Positions 14,164 through 44,617 of a DNA stretch of 64,000 bases are shown here, piece after piece. The stretch comes from Candidatus Magasanikbacteria bacterium CG10_big_fil_rev_8_21_14_0_10_36_32. Its GTDB lineage: Bacteria > Patescibacteriota > Patescibacteriia > Magasanikbacterales > GWA2-37-8. A program made the position numbers and the translations under genes. The stretch spans positions 151,736 through 215,735 of the forward strand of contig PFBV01000003.1 in assembly GCA_002778465.1 (NCBI GenBank). Reading direction: 5' to 3'. Numbering within the stretch: the first letter of the stretch is position 1; every line of letters begins with the position of its first letter. The notes beneath the pieces are model-generated. The model was not told the DNA's origin. It did no database searches and saw only the letters and a list, made by a program, of their open reading frames with translations.

Positions 14164-15165
14164 CTATTGGCTCACCCAATATTTTTGCAGAAGTTCGCTT
14201 CTGATTTTTTGCGTGTTTCCGTGTTTCAGCATCCCCAAATATGATTGTAATGTTTCCTCTTTTGGATTTTCTTTCACACTGGCAAACATCCTTCTTTTTG
14301 TCGCCCGCCGCAAAACGCGATGGTCGGGAAAATTAACCCAGCCGAGAAAATCCGCGCCGGAAGCGTAGGTTTGAATAAAAACTTTTTTATCGTGCAAAGA
14401 CAATTTCAGCCGTGTTTGTAAAAATTCGGCGATTCGTAAAATAATATTTTTAAGCCATTTTTTGTCCGCTGATAATATGGCAAAATCATCAGCGTAACGG
14501 ATATATTTTTTCGCGCGCAAATTATGTTTCATCCATTGGTCCAATTCATTCAAATAGACATTGGAAAATAATTGAGAAGTCAAATTACCCAGCGGTAAAC
14601 CGACACCGGTTTTGTTTTCGTCGGAATAACTCTCAATCACATTTTTTAACAGCCGCATAATATTTTTATTCGGGATATATTCATCTAAAATTTCCATCAA
14701 AATATTATGGTCAATGCTGGCGAAAAACTTGCGAATATCGCATTTTAATATCCAGCAAGTCCGGCTGTTATTGCGGCTTTCGCTTAAAGCCATCCGTTGA
14801 AACCGCTTGACCGCTTTGTGTGTGCCTTTATTCAGACGGCAAGAATACGAATCGGCGATGAATAACCGGTCAAAAAACGAATATAATATCCGATAAATGG
14901 CGTGATGCAACAAGCGATCGCGGACGCCGGCTTTGTGGATGTGGCGCGGCTTCGGGTCGCTGATATTAAACGCTTCGTAAGGCCCGTGCCGGTAATTTCC
15001 GCTTGCCAAATCTTCGTGAAGAGATATAATATTATCAGCTAGGTTGCGGCTGAATTCTAAAACATCAGGCTTGGATTTCTTGCCGACAACAAACTCGCCC
15101 CAGGCGAGAAATAAATTTTCAAATGAAATAATATCTTCAAAACTATGGTTCAGCTTGCTTTTCAT
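14164..15165 (-). CDS. DGR reverse transcriptase. The ORF track extends it to 15306, but the likely start is MKSKLNHSFEDIISFENLFLAWGEF, preceded by AGGA.
   Basis: RT domains with LPLGNLTSQLFSNVYLNELDQ (the DGR-specific I/LGxxxSQ motif that replaces QGxxxSP) and YADDFAILS. Size of about 333 aa is typical of DGR RTs. GC content is higher than the host background. Confidence 0.88.
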   Translation of the reverse strand: MKSKLNHSFEDIISFENLFLAWGEFVVGKKSKPDVLEFSRNLADNIISLHEDLASGNYRHGPYEAFNISDPKPRHIHKAGVRDRLLHHAIYRILYSFFDRLFIADSYSCRLNKGTHKAVKRFQRMALSESRNNSRTCWILKCDIRKFFASIDHNILMEILDEYIPNKNIMRLLKNVIESYSDENKTGVGLPLGNLTSQLFSNVYLNELDQWMKHNLRAKKYIRYADDFAILSADKKWLKNIILRIAEFLQTRLKLSLHDKKVFIQTYASGADFLGWVNFPDHRVLRRATKRRMFASVKENPKEETLQSYLGMLKHGNTQKIRSELLQKYWVSQ

Positions 15166-15203: not shown

Positions 15204-15548
15204 GTGGTGATTGGCAAGGGTAAGGAAGCATACCAACTCTGGCTTGTTCTTCATAGAAACTTTCCCAAAACGGAACGTTTTGGTTTGGGTCAAAAAATTG
15301 ACACAATATTTTTAGAAATTTTAGAACTTGGTTATTCGGCCGGATATCTGCCGCCCGAACAGAAAACCGTCGCCTTGGGAAAAACCATCACTCGCTTGGA
15401 TATATTAAAATTTCTTTTTCAAATTGCATGGGAAAATAAACTGATTCCAAACAATAAATACATTATACTGTCTCAAAAACTGGAAGAAATCGGCCGCATG
15501 CTCGGCGGCTGGAAAAAGGGGCTTCTAAACAAAACTCCCGTAAATTAA
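15204..15548 (+). CDS. avd: Avd-like accessory protein (four-helix bundle, 23S rRNA intervening-sequence protein family), on the strand opposite to the RT and TR
   Basis: FPKTERFGLGQKID... and ...LSQKLEEIGRMLGGWKKGL match the 23S_rRNA_IVP/Avd family pattern (FPKxExxxL.sQlrRA ... eigkmL.gL). It occupies the TR-RT spacer. GTG start. Confidence 0.6.
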   Translation: MVIGKGKEAYQLWLVLHRNFPKTERFGLGQKIDTIFLEILELGYSAGYLPPEQKTVALGKTITRLDILKFLFQIAWENKLIPNNKYIILSQKLEEIGRMLGGWKKGLLNKTPVN

Positions 15549-15564
15549 ACGGGAGAAAACAACA

Positions 15565-15668
15565 GTCGCGAGAAAAGACACGGTTGCCAGCGTTCCACCT
15601 GTTCGGATTCTCAACCGAATTGGCGTTCACGTTCCAGCCGTCATCGTTCCGGTTTACGTTCACGGCGC
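15565..15668 (-). repeat. DGR template repeat (TR)
   Basis: A stretch of about 104 bp homologous to the 3' ends of both target genes. On the minus strand it reads ...AVNVNRNDDGWNVNANSVENPNRWNAGNRVFSR with many AAC codons. All 12 mismatches to VR1 fall at TR adenines. Confidence 0.85.
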
Positions 15669-15918
15669 CCGTTTTCACGCAAAAAATCATCCTTTGCACC
15701 ATTCCTTGAATACTCTTGGAATTGAATTTTATATGGGACATAAGAAGTCCTCTAATTTTTCGCGCCGATTCTTGTTTTTTTGAAAAATTTTTTTATACTC
15801 TCGCGCAAGGCATGCCCAGCACGACTCTCACAAAAAATATTTTAGATACTGTGTCACGCAAGCCGTAGCCGACGCGAAAAACACAATTTCCATTTTTATA
15901 ATAGCATAAAATTTTAGA

Positions 15919-15947
15919 TAAAAAAAGCCCCGCACAAGTGCGGGGCC
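15919..15947 (-). terminator. Intrinsic terminator of target gene 1, a conserved GC-rich hairpin also present downstream of target 2. It may also act as a DGR homing stem-loop/cruciform.
   Basis: Minus strand: GCCCCGCACTTGTGCGGGGC followed by TTTTTTT. A near-identical hairpin sits at 43985-44004. Confidence 0.65.
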
Positions 15948-16006: not shown

Positions 16007-16603
16007 TCAGCGAGAAAAGACACGGCTGCCAGCGCTCCACCTGTCCGGATCCTCAACCGAATTGGCGTGCACGTCCCAGCCGTCACCGTACCGGTGGACG
16101 TACACGGCGCGGAGCACTCCACTGACATCGCGAACATAGAAGATGTTCGTATAGCCGTTGGTGAGAAGTACGCCCGGCTCGCCGTTTGGCTGACAATTCA
16201 CCAGTTTGTAAACGCCGGCCATGGTGACTTCGGCCTTGGCTTCGCCGCCGAGGTCGTTGAGAATTTCGCAATCCAGAGAGACCTTGCTGAGGTCGTGGTG
16301 AGGACGCGAAACCGCCACATCCTTCGCTTCCTCGGTCTTGCCGTAGAACCAGGACTTAAAATTGTCGCCGATGTACAAGAACTTGATGGTGATGTTGGAC
16401 AGCTTGAAGTGGTCGGCGATGGCGAACTTGGTGACGGTGCCGACGATCAGGGCGGCGATCTGCTTGCGCAGGTCGGCGTCCTTGAGCACGCGCTCCATGT
16501 CGCTGTCATCCCCGCCGATGTCCAGCACGGCGTTGGCGATGGCCTTCATAAACCCGAAGGCCTTGCCCATCCCCTTCAGGAACTCACTCGTTTTCTTTGC
16601 CAT
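16007..16603 (-). CDS. DGR variable (target) protein 1, with the C-terminal VR spanning the last 33 codons (about 16008-16110)
   Basis: 198 aa. The C-terminus AVYVHRYGDGWDVHANSVEDPDRWSAGSRVFSR aligns to the TR with substitutions only at AAC/GAC adenines. The gene is GC-rich (about 55%), has an AAGGAG RBS, and is paralogous to the gene at 44066-44617. Confidence 0.85.
   Translation of the reverse strand: MAKKTSEFLKGMGKAFGFMKAIANAVLDIGGDDSDMERVLKDADLRKQIAALIVGTVTKFAIADHFKLSNITIKFLYIGDNFKSWFYGKTEEAKDVAVSRPHHDLSKVSLDCEILNDLGGEAKAEVTMAGVYKLVNCQPNGEPGVLLTNGYTNIFYVRDVSGVLRAVYVHRYGDGWDVHANSVEDPDRWSAGSRVFSR
16008..16110 (-). repeat. DGR variable repeat VR1
   Basis: The nucleotide alignment to the TR shows 12 differences, all at TR adenine positions on the coding strand. 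Confidence 0.85.
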
Positions 16604-16699
16604 GACACTTTCTCCTTGTTTTTGGTCTGCCTCTTGCTAACGCGACATGCGCCAGCCTATGGCTTGCCATTTTTAAAGAACATTACATTATAAGCGAAG

Positions 16700-16844
16700 C
16701 TTAAAATTACGGCGTTGCTCATATAATGAAAAATAAATTTTCCATTTATTCACAACTTGCCATTATAAGTGAAAATCTTGAAATGGCGGCGTTGTTCATA
16801 TATAGAAAACAAGGTTTTTCATCTATTCACAACTTGCCATTATA
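16700..16844. repeat. Tandem repeat, 2 copies of about 77 bp (about 80% identical), in the 5' leader of target gene 1
   Basis: Units cttaaaattacggcgttgctcatataatgaaaaataaattttccatttattcacaacttgccattat and cttgaaatggcggcgttgttcatatatagaaaacaaggtttttcatctattcacaacttgccattat. Each contains the near-palindrome AATGAAAAAT..ATTTTCCATT. Confidence 0.8.
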
Positions 16845-16867
16845 GCACATTTTGAAGGTTTTGTCAA
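16839..16867 (-). promoter_or_regulatory. Consensus sigma70 promoter (copy 2 of the module) driving the repeat-containing leader and target gene 1
   Basis: Minus strand: TTGACA, then AAACCTTCAAAATGTGC (17 nt), then TATAAT. Confidence 0.6.
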
Positions 16868-43838: not shown

Positions 43839-43977
43839 AGTACAAAATTTTTAATTTATAATTTATATTTTTTTGAATAAAAAAGACTGAACGAAATGCT
43901 CAGCCACGAGTTTTTGTTTAGTCTCACGTTCTGCGAATAGAATACATTATTTTTATAAATGTGTCAATAGTTATTAA

Positions 43978-44006
43978 AGTGGATAAAAAGGCCCCGCATA
44001 AATGCG
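43978..44006 (-). terminator. Intrinsic terminator of target gene 2 (conserved GC hairpin)
   Basis: Minus strand: GCCCCGCATTTATGCGGGGC followed by CTTTTTAT. Confidence 0.6.
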
Positions 44007-44065
44007 GGGCCGAAGAGCCAAAGGAACAAAGGGTCAAAGAGTCAAAAAATATAAGGGAACAAGAA

Positions 44066-44617
44066 TCAGCAAGAGAATACGCGGAGGTCGGCGCACCACC
44101 TGCTCGGAAACCCAACCGAATGGGCGCGCACGTCCCAGCCGCCATCGAGCCGGTTCACATACACAGCGCGAAGCACCCTGTTGACATCGAGAACATAGAA
44201 AATGTTCGCATAGCCGTTGGTGAGAAGTACGCCCGCCTCGCCATTTGGCTGGATCTTCAAGAGCTCATAGATGCCGGACATAGTAACTTCGACCTTAGCT
44301 TTGCCGCCGAGGTCATCAATAATTTCGCAATCCAACGAAGCCGCCTTACAGAGGTCGTGGTGAGGATGCGGAACAACCAAATCCTTTACTTCTTCAGTCT
44401 TGCTGTAAAACCACAACTTGAAGTTGTCGCCGATATAACTGAACTTTACTGCGGCGTTGGACAGCGTGAAATTGTCGGCGACAACGAACTTATTGACAGC
44501 GGTTTCCAAAAATCCATCCGGATTCTTGAGGAACTTCTGAAAATTGGCGGACGTAACTCGTCCGGCCTCCACCTGCCTAAAAAATTCCTTCATCTGTTTG
44601 AAACTGGGTTGTAACAT
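44066..44617 (-). CDS. DGR variable (target) protein 2, a remote paralog, with VR2 at about 44067-44168. Likely start MLQPSFKQ (AGGAG RBS); the ORF track extends it to 44635.
   Basis: The C-terminal 130 aa are homologous to target 1. The final 33 codons (AVYVNRLDGGWDVRAHSVGFPSRWCADLRVFSC) align to the TR with about 20 substitutions at TR adenines plus about 8 non-adenine changes. GC-rich. Confidence 0.8.
   Translation of the reverse strand: MLQPSFKQMKEFFRQVEAGRVTSANFQKFLKNPDGFLETAVNKFVVADNFTLSNAAVKFSYIGDNFKLWFYSKTEEVKDLVVPHPHHDLCKAASLDCEIIDDLGGKAKVEVTMSGIYELLKIQPNGEAGVLLTNGYANIFYVLDVNRVLRAVYVNRLDGGWDVRAHSVGFPSRWCADLRVFSC

What the first reader, a model, noticed from the sequence alone, without database searches (positions are those of the whole stretch)
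16007..16603. Small cytoplasmic-looking DGR variable protein family with the VR as the extreme C-terminus
Both targets are about 185-198 aa, have no signal peptide or TM segment, and have divergent N-terminal 60-90 aa followed by a conserved domain (...SNAAVKFSYIGDNFKLWFYSKTEEVKDLVVPHPHHDLCKA.SLDCEI.DDLGGKAKVEVTM.G.Y.L...QPNGE.GVLLTNGY.NIFYV.DV..VLRAVYV...). The VR runs to the stop codon and ends R-V-F-S-R/C. Most characterized DGR targets are surface-displayed C-type-lectin or Ig-fold proteins. A short intracellular-looking target with these motifs does not match families I can name and may be a new variable-protein scaffold, or a CLec-fold minimal domain.
Basis: inference. Interest (0 to 1): 0.6.

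Follow-up and report, generated by a model that had tools for sequence, protein, structure and literature searches.

The report
Small CPR-type DGR variable protein
This is a real, small hypervariable protein gene serviced by a diversity-generating retroelement in a tiny-genome (CPR-type) bacterium. It belongs to a very large family that is already listed in DGR catalogues but has no assigned fold, location or function, and its genes are oddly GC-rich islands.

Summary
The minus-strand gene at 16007-16603 encodes a 198-aa protein (T1) whose last 33 codons are a DGR variable region. It differs from the template repeat (15568-15668) at 11 positions, all template adenines. The reverse transcriptase, an inverted Avd gene and a second target (T2, 44066-44617) complete the element.

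T1 and T2 have no signal peptide, TM segment or possible N-terminal extension, and no Pfam, NCBIfam, PHROG or PDB-sequence match.

The family is large and nearly confined to Patescibacteria: about 3,900 clusters at 50% identity and 196 loci in species-representative genomes. About half of the loci examined repeat the layout target, TR, inverted Avd, RT.

AlphaFold gives a confident 140-aa alpha/beta domain (pLDDT 90) with no significant Foldseek neighbour. Its secondary-structure order fits a C-type-lectin fold, but that is unproven.

The kind is not new. Wu 2018 and Roux 2021 already list family members as unclassified CPR targets, note the lack of membrane signals, and predict new CLec variants.

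One unexpected result: in 77 of 77 loci the target ORF is richer in GC than its flanks (mean +11.6 points), through a shift at synonymous sites. I could not explain this.

The parts
16007..16603 (-). T1: cassette-adjacent DGR variable protein gene, 198 aa plus stop
   Evidence: ORF. The exact protein is on 8 public contigs from at least 4 samples. 67 word-indexed homologues and about 3,900 representative clusters.
16010..16110 (-). VR1: variable region, residues about 166-198, running to the last sense codon
   Evidence: 11 mismatches to the TR, all at TR adenines, none at other bases. 15 variable codons, 10 of them AAY in the TR, giving about 1e14 possible peptides.
16433..16603 (-). N-terminal helical module of T1 (residues 1-57), a swappable 'handle'
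   Evidence: AF2 predicts three helices at pLDDT 45-70. The same module heads a different DGR-targeted C-terminal domain in P0059-P0067.
16010..16432 (-). Conserved alpha/beta domain carrying the VR (residues 58-198)
   Evidence: AF2 domain model has pLDDT 90.3 and pTM 0.86. Conserved motifs include LLTNGYANIFYVRD...RAV.V.W.G.GW.V.A.SV..P..W..G.RVFSR.
16612..16617 (-). Shine-Dalgarno AAGGAG, 8 nt before the T1 ATG
   Evidence: Sequence read directly.
16839..16867 (-). Consensus sigma-70-type promoter (TTGACA-17-TGnTATAAT), about 236 nt upstream of T1
   Evidence: 12/12 hexamer match. It lies in tandem units of about 76 nt at 16664-16844. Function is inferred.
15926..15947 (-). 9-bp GC-rich hairpin with a 4-nt loop and a T-run, 62 nt after the T1 stop: an intrinsic terminator and possibly the DGR target hairpin/cruciform
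   Evidence: Conserved with compensatory changes after T2. DGR targets usually carry 7-10 bp GC stems with 4-nt loops downstream of the VR (PMC3240598). Here the loop is not GRNA and the distance is longer.
15568..15668 (-). TR: template repeat, encoding AVNVNRNDDGWNVNANSVENPNRWNAGNRVFSR
   Evidence: The 92-aa ORF 15463-15741 over it is a decayed copy of the target 3' end, not a gene (read directly).
15204..15548 (+). Avd accessory protein, encoded on the strand opposite to target, TR and RT
   Evidence: Pfam bAvd E=5.6e-15 and NCBIfam DivGenRetAVD E=3e-19. The inverted orientation is conserved in related loci.
14164..15165 (-). DGR reverse transcriptase. The ORF extends to 15306; the likely start is MKSKLNH at 15165
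   Evidence: RVT_1 E=1e-22. Motifs LGNLTSQ and YADD are present.
44066..44617 (-). T2: remote paralogous target, 183 aa from the SD-supported Met (the ORF extends to 44635)
   Evidence: P0189 has the same N-terminal sequence.
44069..44169 (-). VR2: variable region of T2, partly diverged from the TR
   Evidence: 17 mismatches at TR adenines and 7 at other bases, clustered at the 3' end.
43990..44011 (-). Hairpin plus T-run after T2, homologous to the one after T1
   Evidence: The 3' flanks are 90% identical over 63 nt. Fold.

Best explanation
T1 is the cassette-adjacent variable protein of a chromosomal, CPR-type diversity-generating retroelement, and T2 is a second, remote target of the same element.

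Mechanism. The RT, with Avd, copies TR RNA into cDNA and misincorporates opposite template adenines. The cDNA then overwrites the last ~100 nt of the target gene. This randomises 15 codons, 10 of them AAY, for about 1e14 possible peptides.

Structure. In the predicted structure these codons lie at alternating positions of a beta-hairpin (residues 164-182) and in the following loop. The invariant last strand (RVF) and the invariant Trp176 and Trp189 frame that surface. The protein is an N-terminal helical handle of about 55 aa, which is exchangeable between target families, followed by a compact alpha/beta domain of about 140 aa. That domain is probably a trimmed, highly diverged C-type-lectin-like fold.

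Function. It most likely acts as a soluble binding module of diversifiable specificity. With no export or anchoring signal in T1, T2 or about 97% of relatives, I lean to a cytoplasmic location, or one that depends on a partner bound by the handle (about 0.5), over classical surface display.

Shown: the DGR parts, adenine-specific TR/VR differences, family size and taxonomy, conserved cassette layout, lack of signals, and a confident domain model.

Inferred: ligand binding, fold class, location, and current activity.
For: - TR/VR1 mismatches are 11 at adenines and 0 elsewhere.
- RT carries LGNLTSQ and YADD, and Avd is recognised.
- AAY codon pattern and the diversity estimate.
- The layout target, TR, inverted Avd, RT recurs in about 40 of 83 related loci, with adenine-dominated mismatches such as 23:0, 16:0, 18:0 and 20:0.
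- The best 80 of 196 genome loci are almost all labelled Patescibacteria/CPR lineages.
- The family has 3,901 representative clusters, nearly all 170-280 aa.
- AF2 gives pLDDT above 90 for residues 61-198, and variable positions map to strands 164-172 and 175-182 and the next loop.
- Secondary-structure order is beta0-beta1-alpha-beta-alpha-alpha-beta2-beta3-beta4-beta5, like the CLec core described in PMC5006420.
- The only long structural alignments (more than 100 columns, TM 0.35-0.42) are to C-type lectin domains.
- There is no SP or TM, and the start codon is well supported.
- T1 and T2 share conserved 3' flanks with a GC hairpin.
- The literature describes this class of CPR targets.
Against: - No structural hit is significant. 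The best Foldseek E-values are 0.89 (PDB) and 0.33 (BFVD), and C-type lectin domains drop out of the top 50 when the domain-only model is searched.
- There is no sequence or profile link to FGE-type CLec domains.
- The beta1-beta5 pairing that defines the fold could not be checked, because no coordinates were available.
- Location is argued from missing signals only. A few relatives do carry a lipoprotein signal (P0164) or a Sec-like signal (P0069) ahead of the usual N-terminus, so the domain can work outside the cell.
- The same VR1 allele is found in at least 4 samples and in P0001. Ongoing diversification is therefore not shown, although that look-up finds only identical proteins.
- VR2 carries 7 non-adenine differences.
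Confidence: 0.8

Rival explanations
1. The VR-bearing domain is a new variable-protein scaffold, not a CLec fold. It would be a third structural solution for DGR hypervariation, beside CLec and the disputed Ig-like type.
For: - A confident model (pLDDT 90.3, pTM 0.86) has no Foldseek neighbour with E below 0.3 in PDB or BFVD.
- Mtd, TvpA, AvpA and TaqVP chains are not among the top 50 of 201-241 matches.
- hhalign against an FGE-sulfatase C-terminal profile gives 2.4% probability.
- No Pfam hit in any of 49 members.
- Wu 2018 could not assign such CPR VRs to any fold.
Against: - The secondary-structure order, the C-terminal VR, the invariant last strand and the invariant aromatic residues all fit the CLec pattern.
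- The only long alignments are to C-type lectin domains.
Confidence: 0.3
2. The protein is exported or surface-associated like classical DGR targets. Export would use an unrecognised signal or a partner bound by the N-terminal helical handle, and the protein would mediate attachment of the episymbiont to host cells or particles.
For: - Rare relatives carry a lipoprotein signal peptide (P0164, MKKSLVLTLVLALFASFVISGC) or a Sec-type signal with two tandem domains (P0069). One protein has five tandem domains (P0068), which is adhesin-like.
- The N-terminal handle is shared between different variable domains, as expected for a docking or targeting module.
- The general DGR pattern is surface display (PMC8144416).
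Against: - About 97% of 289 family sequences have no signal-like N-terminus. Only about 4 of the 212 database proteins screened look signal- or TM-like.
- The T1 and T2 starts are fixed by strong Shine-Dalgarno sites, with no room for an extension.
- No secretion or pilus genes recur next to the cassette; the neighbours are unrelated housekeeping genes.
- Only crude heuristics were used, not SignalP or DeepTMHMM.
Confidence: 0.35
3. T1 and/or T2 are relics: former DGR targets that are no longer diversified, with frozen VRs.
For: - The identical T1 protein, including the VR, occurs on 8 contigs from at least 4 samples, and P0001 differs only outside the VR.
- VR2 has 7 non-adenine mismatches, concentrated at the 3' end where target recognition occurs.
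Against: - VR1 has no non-adenine mismatch in about 100 nt.
- RT, Avd and TR are intact, with catalytic motifs present.
- The 3' flank and hairpin are conserved at both targets.
- The exact-match look-up can only find identical alleles, and assemblies report the consensus.
Confidence: 0.15

Closest known systems
Unclassified CPR DGR targets: the 'misc'/UVR classes with architecture B3 in Wu et al. 2018, and the clade-2 'other' (non-membrane) target clusters of Roux et al. 2021, first surveyed by Paul et al. 2017
   Same: Small proteins from Patescibacteria with a C-terminal VR and no TM or known domain. The cassette has a rearranged avd/TR order or orientation. Family members with the LLTNGYANIFY motif are literally present in the Roux target FASTA, labelled 'misc'.
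   Different: Those papers did not define this family, its size, its predicted structure, its shared N-terminal handle or its GC anomaly. I could not read Paul et al. 2017, so what it says about this family is unknown to me.
AvpA, the Nanoarchaeota DGR variable protein (new CLec subclass; Handa et al. 2016)
   Same: A small single-domain target from an ultra-small symbiont. It was unclassifiable by sequence or modelling, has a short VR (27 aa, 12 variable residues, 10 AAY codons, about 1e13 variants), an invariant last strand encoded next to the IMH, and an invariant aromatic residue at the base of the site.
   Different: AvpA's VR is internal, with 46 residues after it, and it carries three large inserts. 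Here the VR ends at the stop codon and the domain is only about 140 aa. A family profile search of PDB sequences found no CLec chain.
FGE-type CLec variable proteins: Mtd (Bordetella phage BPP-1), TvpA (Treponema denticola) and the PF03781 FGE-sulfatase targets
   Same: C-terminal VR, AAY-rich TR, and a ligand-binding surface built from C-terminal strands and loops. By eye the motifs resemble each other (G.GW ... P..W..G.RVF versus GGSW ... P..R....GFR).
   Different: No hmmscan hit to PF03781 in 49 members. hhalign probability is 2.4% and there is no Foldseek hit. There is no trimerising phage-fibre N-terminus (Mtd) and no lipobox (TvpA). The domain is about half the size.
DGR targets thought to act inside the cell, such as STAND/P-loop NTPase or kinase fusions (Wu 2018 categories b and g; Roux 2021 'microbial cell regulation')
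   Same: No export signal, so a possible cytoplasmic role for a hypervariable binder.
   Different: T1 and T2 have no NTPase, kinase or other effector domain, only a 40-57 aa helical handle.

Membership tests
DGR variable protein (target gene) | VR/TR repeat pair whose differences fall at TR adenines | tested here: met
   VR1: 11 of 11 mismatches at TR adenines over about 100 nt. VR2: 17 at adenines and 7 elsewhere. The same pattern is seen in related loci.
DGR variable protein (target gene) | Nearby DGR-type reverse transcriptase ([ILV]GxxxSQ, YxDD) and an Avd accessory protein | tested here: met
   RVT_1 E=1e-22; LGNLTSQ and YADD present; bAvd E=5.6e-15; DivGenRetAVD E=3e-19.
DGR variable protein (target gene) | AAY-rich template, so that variable codons avoid stops | tested here: met
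   10 AAY codons among 15 variable codons; only Arg188 (AGG) and 4 GAN codons differ.
DGR variable protein (target gene) | Cis elements 3' of the VR: an IMH-type end and a GC-rich hairpin/cruciform with a 4-nt loop | tested here: inconclusive
   A 9-bp GC stem with a 4-nt loop is conserved after both targets. It lies 62 nt from the stop (4-34 bp in phage DGRs), its loop is TTGT or TTTA rather than GRNA, and it also looks like an ordinary terminator.
DGR variable protein (target gene) | Ongoing diversification (VR heterogeneity within a population) | not testable with these tools
   No read data were available. The exact-match look-up found the same allele in at least 4 samples, and a 25-mer scan found only a different family member.
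FGE-sulfatase-type CLec domain (PF03781; Mtd/TvpA class) | Sequence or profile match to PF03781 | tested here: not met
   No hit at E up to 10 in 49 members. hhalign of A4 against a 50-sequence PF03781 C-terminal profile gave 2.4% probability.
FGE-sulfatase-type CLec domain (PF03781; Mtd/TvpA class) | Structural superposition on Mtd, TvpA or FGE | tested here: not met
C-type lectin fold in the broad sense (DGR CLec core as in PMC5006420) | Antiparallel pairing of the N- and C-terminal strands (beta1/beta5) | not testable with these tools
   The structure tool returns no coordinates or contacts. Only strands 18-21 and 137-139 of the domain model are known.
C-type lectin fold in the broad sense (DGR CLec core as in PMC5006420) | Two helices followed by a beta2-beta3-beta4 sheet that carries the binding site, in that order | tested here: inconclusive
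   The order E-E-H-E-H-H-H-E-E-E-E fits. Weak long alignments to BDCA2, CD72, MCL, rhodocetin and a herpesvirus C-type lectin give TM 0.35-0.42 and E of 0.8 or more.
C-type lectin fold in the broad sense (DGR CLec core as in PMC5006420) | Invariant last strand encoded at the VR 3' end, and an invariant aromatic residue at the base of the variable surface | tested here: met
   R194-V-F-S-R has no TR adenines. W176 and W189 are invariant in the TR and at least 90% conserved in the family.
AvpA-like archaeal CLec subclass | Sequence similarity to AvpA and an internal VR followed by a C-terminal extension | tested here: not met
   The profile search of PDB sequences found only a chance serpin hit. 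Here the VR ends at the stop codon.
CPR-type DGR (architecture B3 of Wu 2018 / clade 2 of Roux 2021) with non-membrane targets | Patescibacterial host, rearranged avd/TR orientation, and a target without TM or known domains | tested here: met
   Avd is on the opposite strand between TR and RT, here and in about 40 related loci. There is no TM or SP. Family members are in the published target set. I did not see the B3 diagram itself, so equating this layout with B3 is an inference.
Lipoprotein DGR targets (TvpA/LdtA type) | N-terminal lipoprotein signal peptide with a lipobox Cys | tested here: not met
   Absent from T1 and T2. Present in one distant relative, P0164.

The most novel reading that the evidence does not exclude
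The ~140-aa VR domain is a minimal hypervariable scaffold that forms a new fold or a new CLec subclass, and it works inside the cell, docked through an exchangeable helical handle. In addition, DGR target ORFs in CPR bacteria are kept as GC3-rich islands by a process tied to being a DGR target. That process could be GC-biased conversion among paralogous targets or selection at the RNA or DNA level, and it has not been described.
Probability: 0.2. Interest if true: 0.75.

Novelty: new member of a known kind. Interest (0 to 1): 0.42.

Why it matters
CPR bacteria are among the heaviest users of DGRs, yet nobody knows what their variable proteins bind or where they act. Roux et al. 2021 state openly that it is undecided whether CPR targets are truly non-membrane proteins.

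This window offers a clean, complete example of what appears to be one of the largest such families. It comes with a confident domain model, defined variable positions, a fixed start codon and two targets. That makes it a practical candidate for crystallography, localisation studies and binding screens.

The family-wide GC3 island, if confirmed across DGR targets, would point to an unrecognised constraint or mutational process acting on hypermutation targets. It could also serve as a composition-based marker for finding orphan targets.

Tried and rejected
1. Dual coding. Long antisense ORFs cover T1 (16067-16693, 208 aa) and T2 (43961-44614, 217 aa). Only 16 of 84 family genes keep that frame open (mean 2.3 stops), so they are by-products of GC-rich third positions.
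2. GC richness as a footprint of adenine mutagenesis. A and T are depleted about equally at third positions, and positions 1 and 2 look like the host, so the effect is not adenine-specific.
3. GC excess tied to being next to the RT. Local targets show +0.102 and remote targets +0.081, p=0.24.
4. The by-eye FGE-sulfatase motif resemblance was not supported by hhalign.
5. A search with the N-terminal 58 aa alone returned nothing because of the word prefilter.
6. A 25-mer scan of metagenomes for VR1 allelic variants found only a 73%-identical family member.
8. PHROGs and PADLOC gave no hit for the targets.
9. I tried to test GC islands in phage DGR targets as a control. The FGE-type hits in the phage collection were not clearly DGR targets, so I abandoned it.
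10. Paul et al. 2017 is not held. Literature searches found no report of GC-rich DGR target genes.
11. Single-linkage clustering of the N-terminal regions lumped everything together through the conserved linker. Regex classes are only rough.

Full report
**What is there**

The minus-strand ORF at 16007-16603 encodes a 198-aa protein, T1. Its ATG is preceded by AAGGAG with an 8-nt spacer. Upstream there are in-frame stops with no earlier start codon, so the N-terminus is fixed.

Going downstream on the same strand, the locus contains:
- a GC-rich hairpin with a T-run at 15926-15947;
- a 101-nt template repeat (TR) at 15568-15668;
- an Avd gene on the opposite strand at 15204-15548 (Pfam bAvd E=5.6e-15, NCBIfam DivGenRetAVD E=3e-19);
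- a reverse transcriptase at 14164-15165 with the DGR motif LGNLTSQ and YADD.

The last ~100 nt of T1 (VR1, 16010-16110) differ from the TR at 11 positions. All 11 are TR adenines and none is another base.

A paralog, T2, lies 28 kb away at 44066-44617. Its start is set by its Shine-Dalgarno site, and the database protein P0189 has the same N-terminal sequence. It is 60% identical to T1 over 165 aa. Its VR2 has 17 adenine and 7 non-adenine differences from the TR. The 3' flanks of T1 and T2 are 90% identical over 63 nt, including the hairpin.

**The diversified surface**

The TR encodes AVNVNRNDDGWNVNANSVENPNRWNAGNRVFSR. Fifteen codons contain adenine and ten are AAY, giving about 1e14 possible peptides.

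AlphaFold2, run with a 56-sequence alignment, predicts three N-terminal helices at low confidence (pLDDT 45-70) and a confident domain from residue 61 onward (pLDDT above 90). The domain-only model has pLDDT 90.3 and pTM 0.86.

The variable codons fall at alternating positions of strands 164-172 and 175-182 and in the loop before the last strand. W176, W189 and the final R-V-F are invariant. This is how solved DGR variable proteins organise a binding site (PMC5006420).

**The family**

- A word-indexed search found 67 relatives of about 200 aa, none with a Pfam domain.
- An exhaustive profile search found 3,901 representative clusters at 50% identity (1,008 with E of 1e-30 or lower), nearly all 170-280 aa. 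One protein has five tandem domains and two have two.
- In species-representative genomes 196 loci encode a relative. The best 80 are almost all labelled Patescibacteria/CPR lineages such as Paceibacterota, Yanofsky-, Vogel-, Taylor-, Doudna- and Giovannonibacteria.
- About 40 of 83 loci repeat the layout target, TR (about 350 nt downstream), inverted Avd, RT. The others are remote targets like T2.
- TR/VR mismatches in those loci are overwhelmingly at adenines, for example 23:0, 16:0, 18:0 and 20:0. A few apparent exceptions are alignment-boundary artefacts of my ungapped method.

**What the protein is not**

T1, T2 and the 49 aligned members have no Pfam or NCBIfam match. There is no PHROG or PADLOC match. 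Neither phmmer nor a family profile finds a match among PDB sequences.

I recalled an FGE-sulfatase-like motif pattern and tested it. A consensus written from memory did retrieve PF03781 proteins. hhalign of the family profile against a 50-sequence PF03781 C-terminal profile gave only 2.4% probability.

Foldseek found nothing significant:
- full-length model against PDB, best E=0.89;
- domain-only model against PDB, best E=0.89;
- domain-only model against BFVD, best E=0.33.

**Location**

Hydropathy and signal-like heuristics find no TM segment or signal peptide in T1, T2 or the great majority of 212 database relatives. About four exceptions exist:
- P0164 has a textbook lipoprotein signal (…FVISGC) placed in front of the usual N-terminus.
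- P0069 has a Sec-like signal and two domains.
- P0088 and P0107 have hydrophobic N-termini.

The N-terminal 40-80 aa form a fast-evolving helix-GG-helix region (for example …LGG……FLRG/KE), followed by a conserved linker.

The T1 version of this handle (MAKK.SEFLKGMGKAF…AVLDIGGDDSD…) also heads proteins with a different C-terminal domain (P0059-P0067). At least one of these, P0060, is itself a DGR target with the same cassette layout. The handle is therefore an exchangeable module, as Roux et al. anticipated for DGR targets.

Gene neighbourhoods share nothing except the DGR cassette; the flanking genes are unrelated housekeeping genes. I lean to a soluble protein that is cytoplasmic or partner-docked. 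This is inference from absence, and the signal-bearing relatives show the domain can function outside the cell.

**Activity**

VR1 carries only adenine-site changes, so the element has acted on it. The identical T1 protein, VR included, is present on 8 contigs from at least 4 samples, and P0001 differs only at residue 100. Current diversification is therefore unproven, although that look-up cannot see non-identical alleles. VR2's non-adenine changes cluster at its 3' end, so T2 may be drifting out of the system even though its 3' flank elements are conserved.

**Comparison with the literature**

- Wu et al. 2018 compiled 126 CPR DGRs. They could not decide the fold of their VRs (UVR1-6 plus 45 ungrouped) and found architecture B3 in 90% of them.
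- Roux et al. 2021 report that CPR (clade 2) targets typically lack TM or known domains. They say it is unresolved whether these are true non-membrane targets, and they predict that such VR domains are new CLec variants.
- Proteins with this family's signature motif (LLTNGYANIFY…) are in their target FASTA, labelled 'misc'.

The finding is thus a new, well-resolved member of a known but uncharacterised kind, not a new kind.

**An unexpected property**

T1 is 58% GC (GC3 0.80) in a 34% GC window where other genes have GC3 of 0.24-0.30. T2 has GC3 0.62, and RT and Avd are close to host values.

This holds across the family:
- In 77 of 77 loci with enough flank the target ORF is richer in GC than its surroundings. 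The mean excess is +11.6 points, with targets at 0.55±0.05 against flanks of 0.33-0.63.
- The excess starts at the start codon and stops at the stop codon.
- It is a third-position effect. Target third positions are C .37, G .29, A .15, T .19, against host C .22, G .23, A .25, T .30. Positions 1 and 2 are host-like.
- A and T are depleted about equally, so this is not the adenine signature.
- It does not differ between RT-adjacent and remote targets.
- It is not explained by an overlapping antisense gene.
- Two targets of a different C-terminal family that share the handle show it too: P0060 has GC3 0.90 in a 45% GC genome, and P0066 is 51% GC against 34%.

I found no report of this and have no tested explanation. 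GC-biased conversion among paralogous targets, selection on mRNA or DNA properties, and repeated transfer are all open. Generality beyond these CPR families was not tested.

**Verdict**

Interest is moderate. It comes mainly from the size of the family, the confident but unmatched domain model, the exchangeable handle and the unexplained GC island.

Noticed in passing
window 16007-16603 and 44066-44617; loci L001-L085: DGR target ORFs are GC-rich islands. T1 has GC3 0.80 and T2 0.62, against host values of 0.24-0.30. In 77 of 77 related loci the target is richer in GC than its flanks (mean +11.6 points). The excess is confined to the ORF and to third codon positions, with A and T depleted about equally. 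It is also seen in a different target family (P0060, P0066). Unexplained.
   Followed up: partly
window 15204-15548 (+), versus TR 15568-15668 (-) and RT 14164-15165 (-): Avd is encoded on the opposite strand, between TR and RT, so any RNA continuing from the TR towards the RT would be antisense to avd. The same inversion is seen in about 40 related loci. It probably corresponds to the 'B3' architecture that Wu 2018 reports for 90% of CPR DGRs.
   Followed up: partly
window 15535-15555 (-): A 7-bp hairpin plus T-run (CTCCCGTTTAATTTACGGGAG TTTTG) starts about 13 nt after the TR and overlaps the avd stop region on the other strand. It could end a short TR RNA or be part of the RNA structure used for cDNA priming.
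   Followed up: no
window 16664-16867: The T1 upstream region holds about 2.5 tandem copies of a unit of roughly 76 nt (82% and 74% identity). Next to the uppermost copy and just overlapping its end is a perfect extended sigma-70 promoter (TTGACA-17-TGnTATAAT, 16867->16839, minus strand), implying a 5' leader of about 230 nt.
   Followed up: partly
window 16067-16693 (+) and 43961-44614 (+): Antisense ORFs of 208 and 217 aa span both target genes. Family-wide this frame is open in only 16 of 84 genes, so they are by-products of GC-rich third positions, not genes.
   Followed up: yes
P0059-P0067; L084 6001-6567; L085 6001-6612: The T1 N-terminal ~55-aa module (MAKK.SEFLKGMGKAF..AVLDIGGDDSD..) is fused to an unrelated C-terminal domain that ends in a W/G-rich stretch. 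At least P0060 of this group is a DGR target with the same cassette layout. This is evidence of domain shuffling among CPR DGR targets.
   Followed up: partly
P0068 (926 aa), P0069 (379 aa), P0164 (234 aa): There are rare architectural variants: five tandem copies of the domain (P0068), a Sec-like signal peptide with two copies (P0069), and a lipoprotein signal peptide ahead of the normal N-terminus (P0164). Their genomic contexts could not be looked up.
   Followed up: no
window 15463-15741 (-): The 92-aa ORF over the TR reads like a decayed copy of the target's 3' end (…RMIFCVKTG-AVNVNRNDDGW… versus …NIFYVRDVSGVLRAVYVHRYGDGW…). This suggests the TR arose by duplication of the target's 3' end.
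   Followed up: no
window 16091-16093 (T1 residue 171) and the matching T2 codon: The family's nearly invariant Trp in V.V.W.G.GW is Arg (CGG) in T1, T2 and the TR of this genome.
   Followed up: no
L088-L091: The exact T1 protein, with the same parA-parB / T1 / RT / relA neighbourhood, is assembled from at least four independent samples (ENA ERZ27293414, JGI 3300004209 and 3300004210, SRR6240784). The organism therefore recurs and the consensus VR1 allele is stable.
   Followed up: partly
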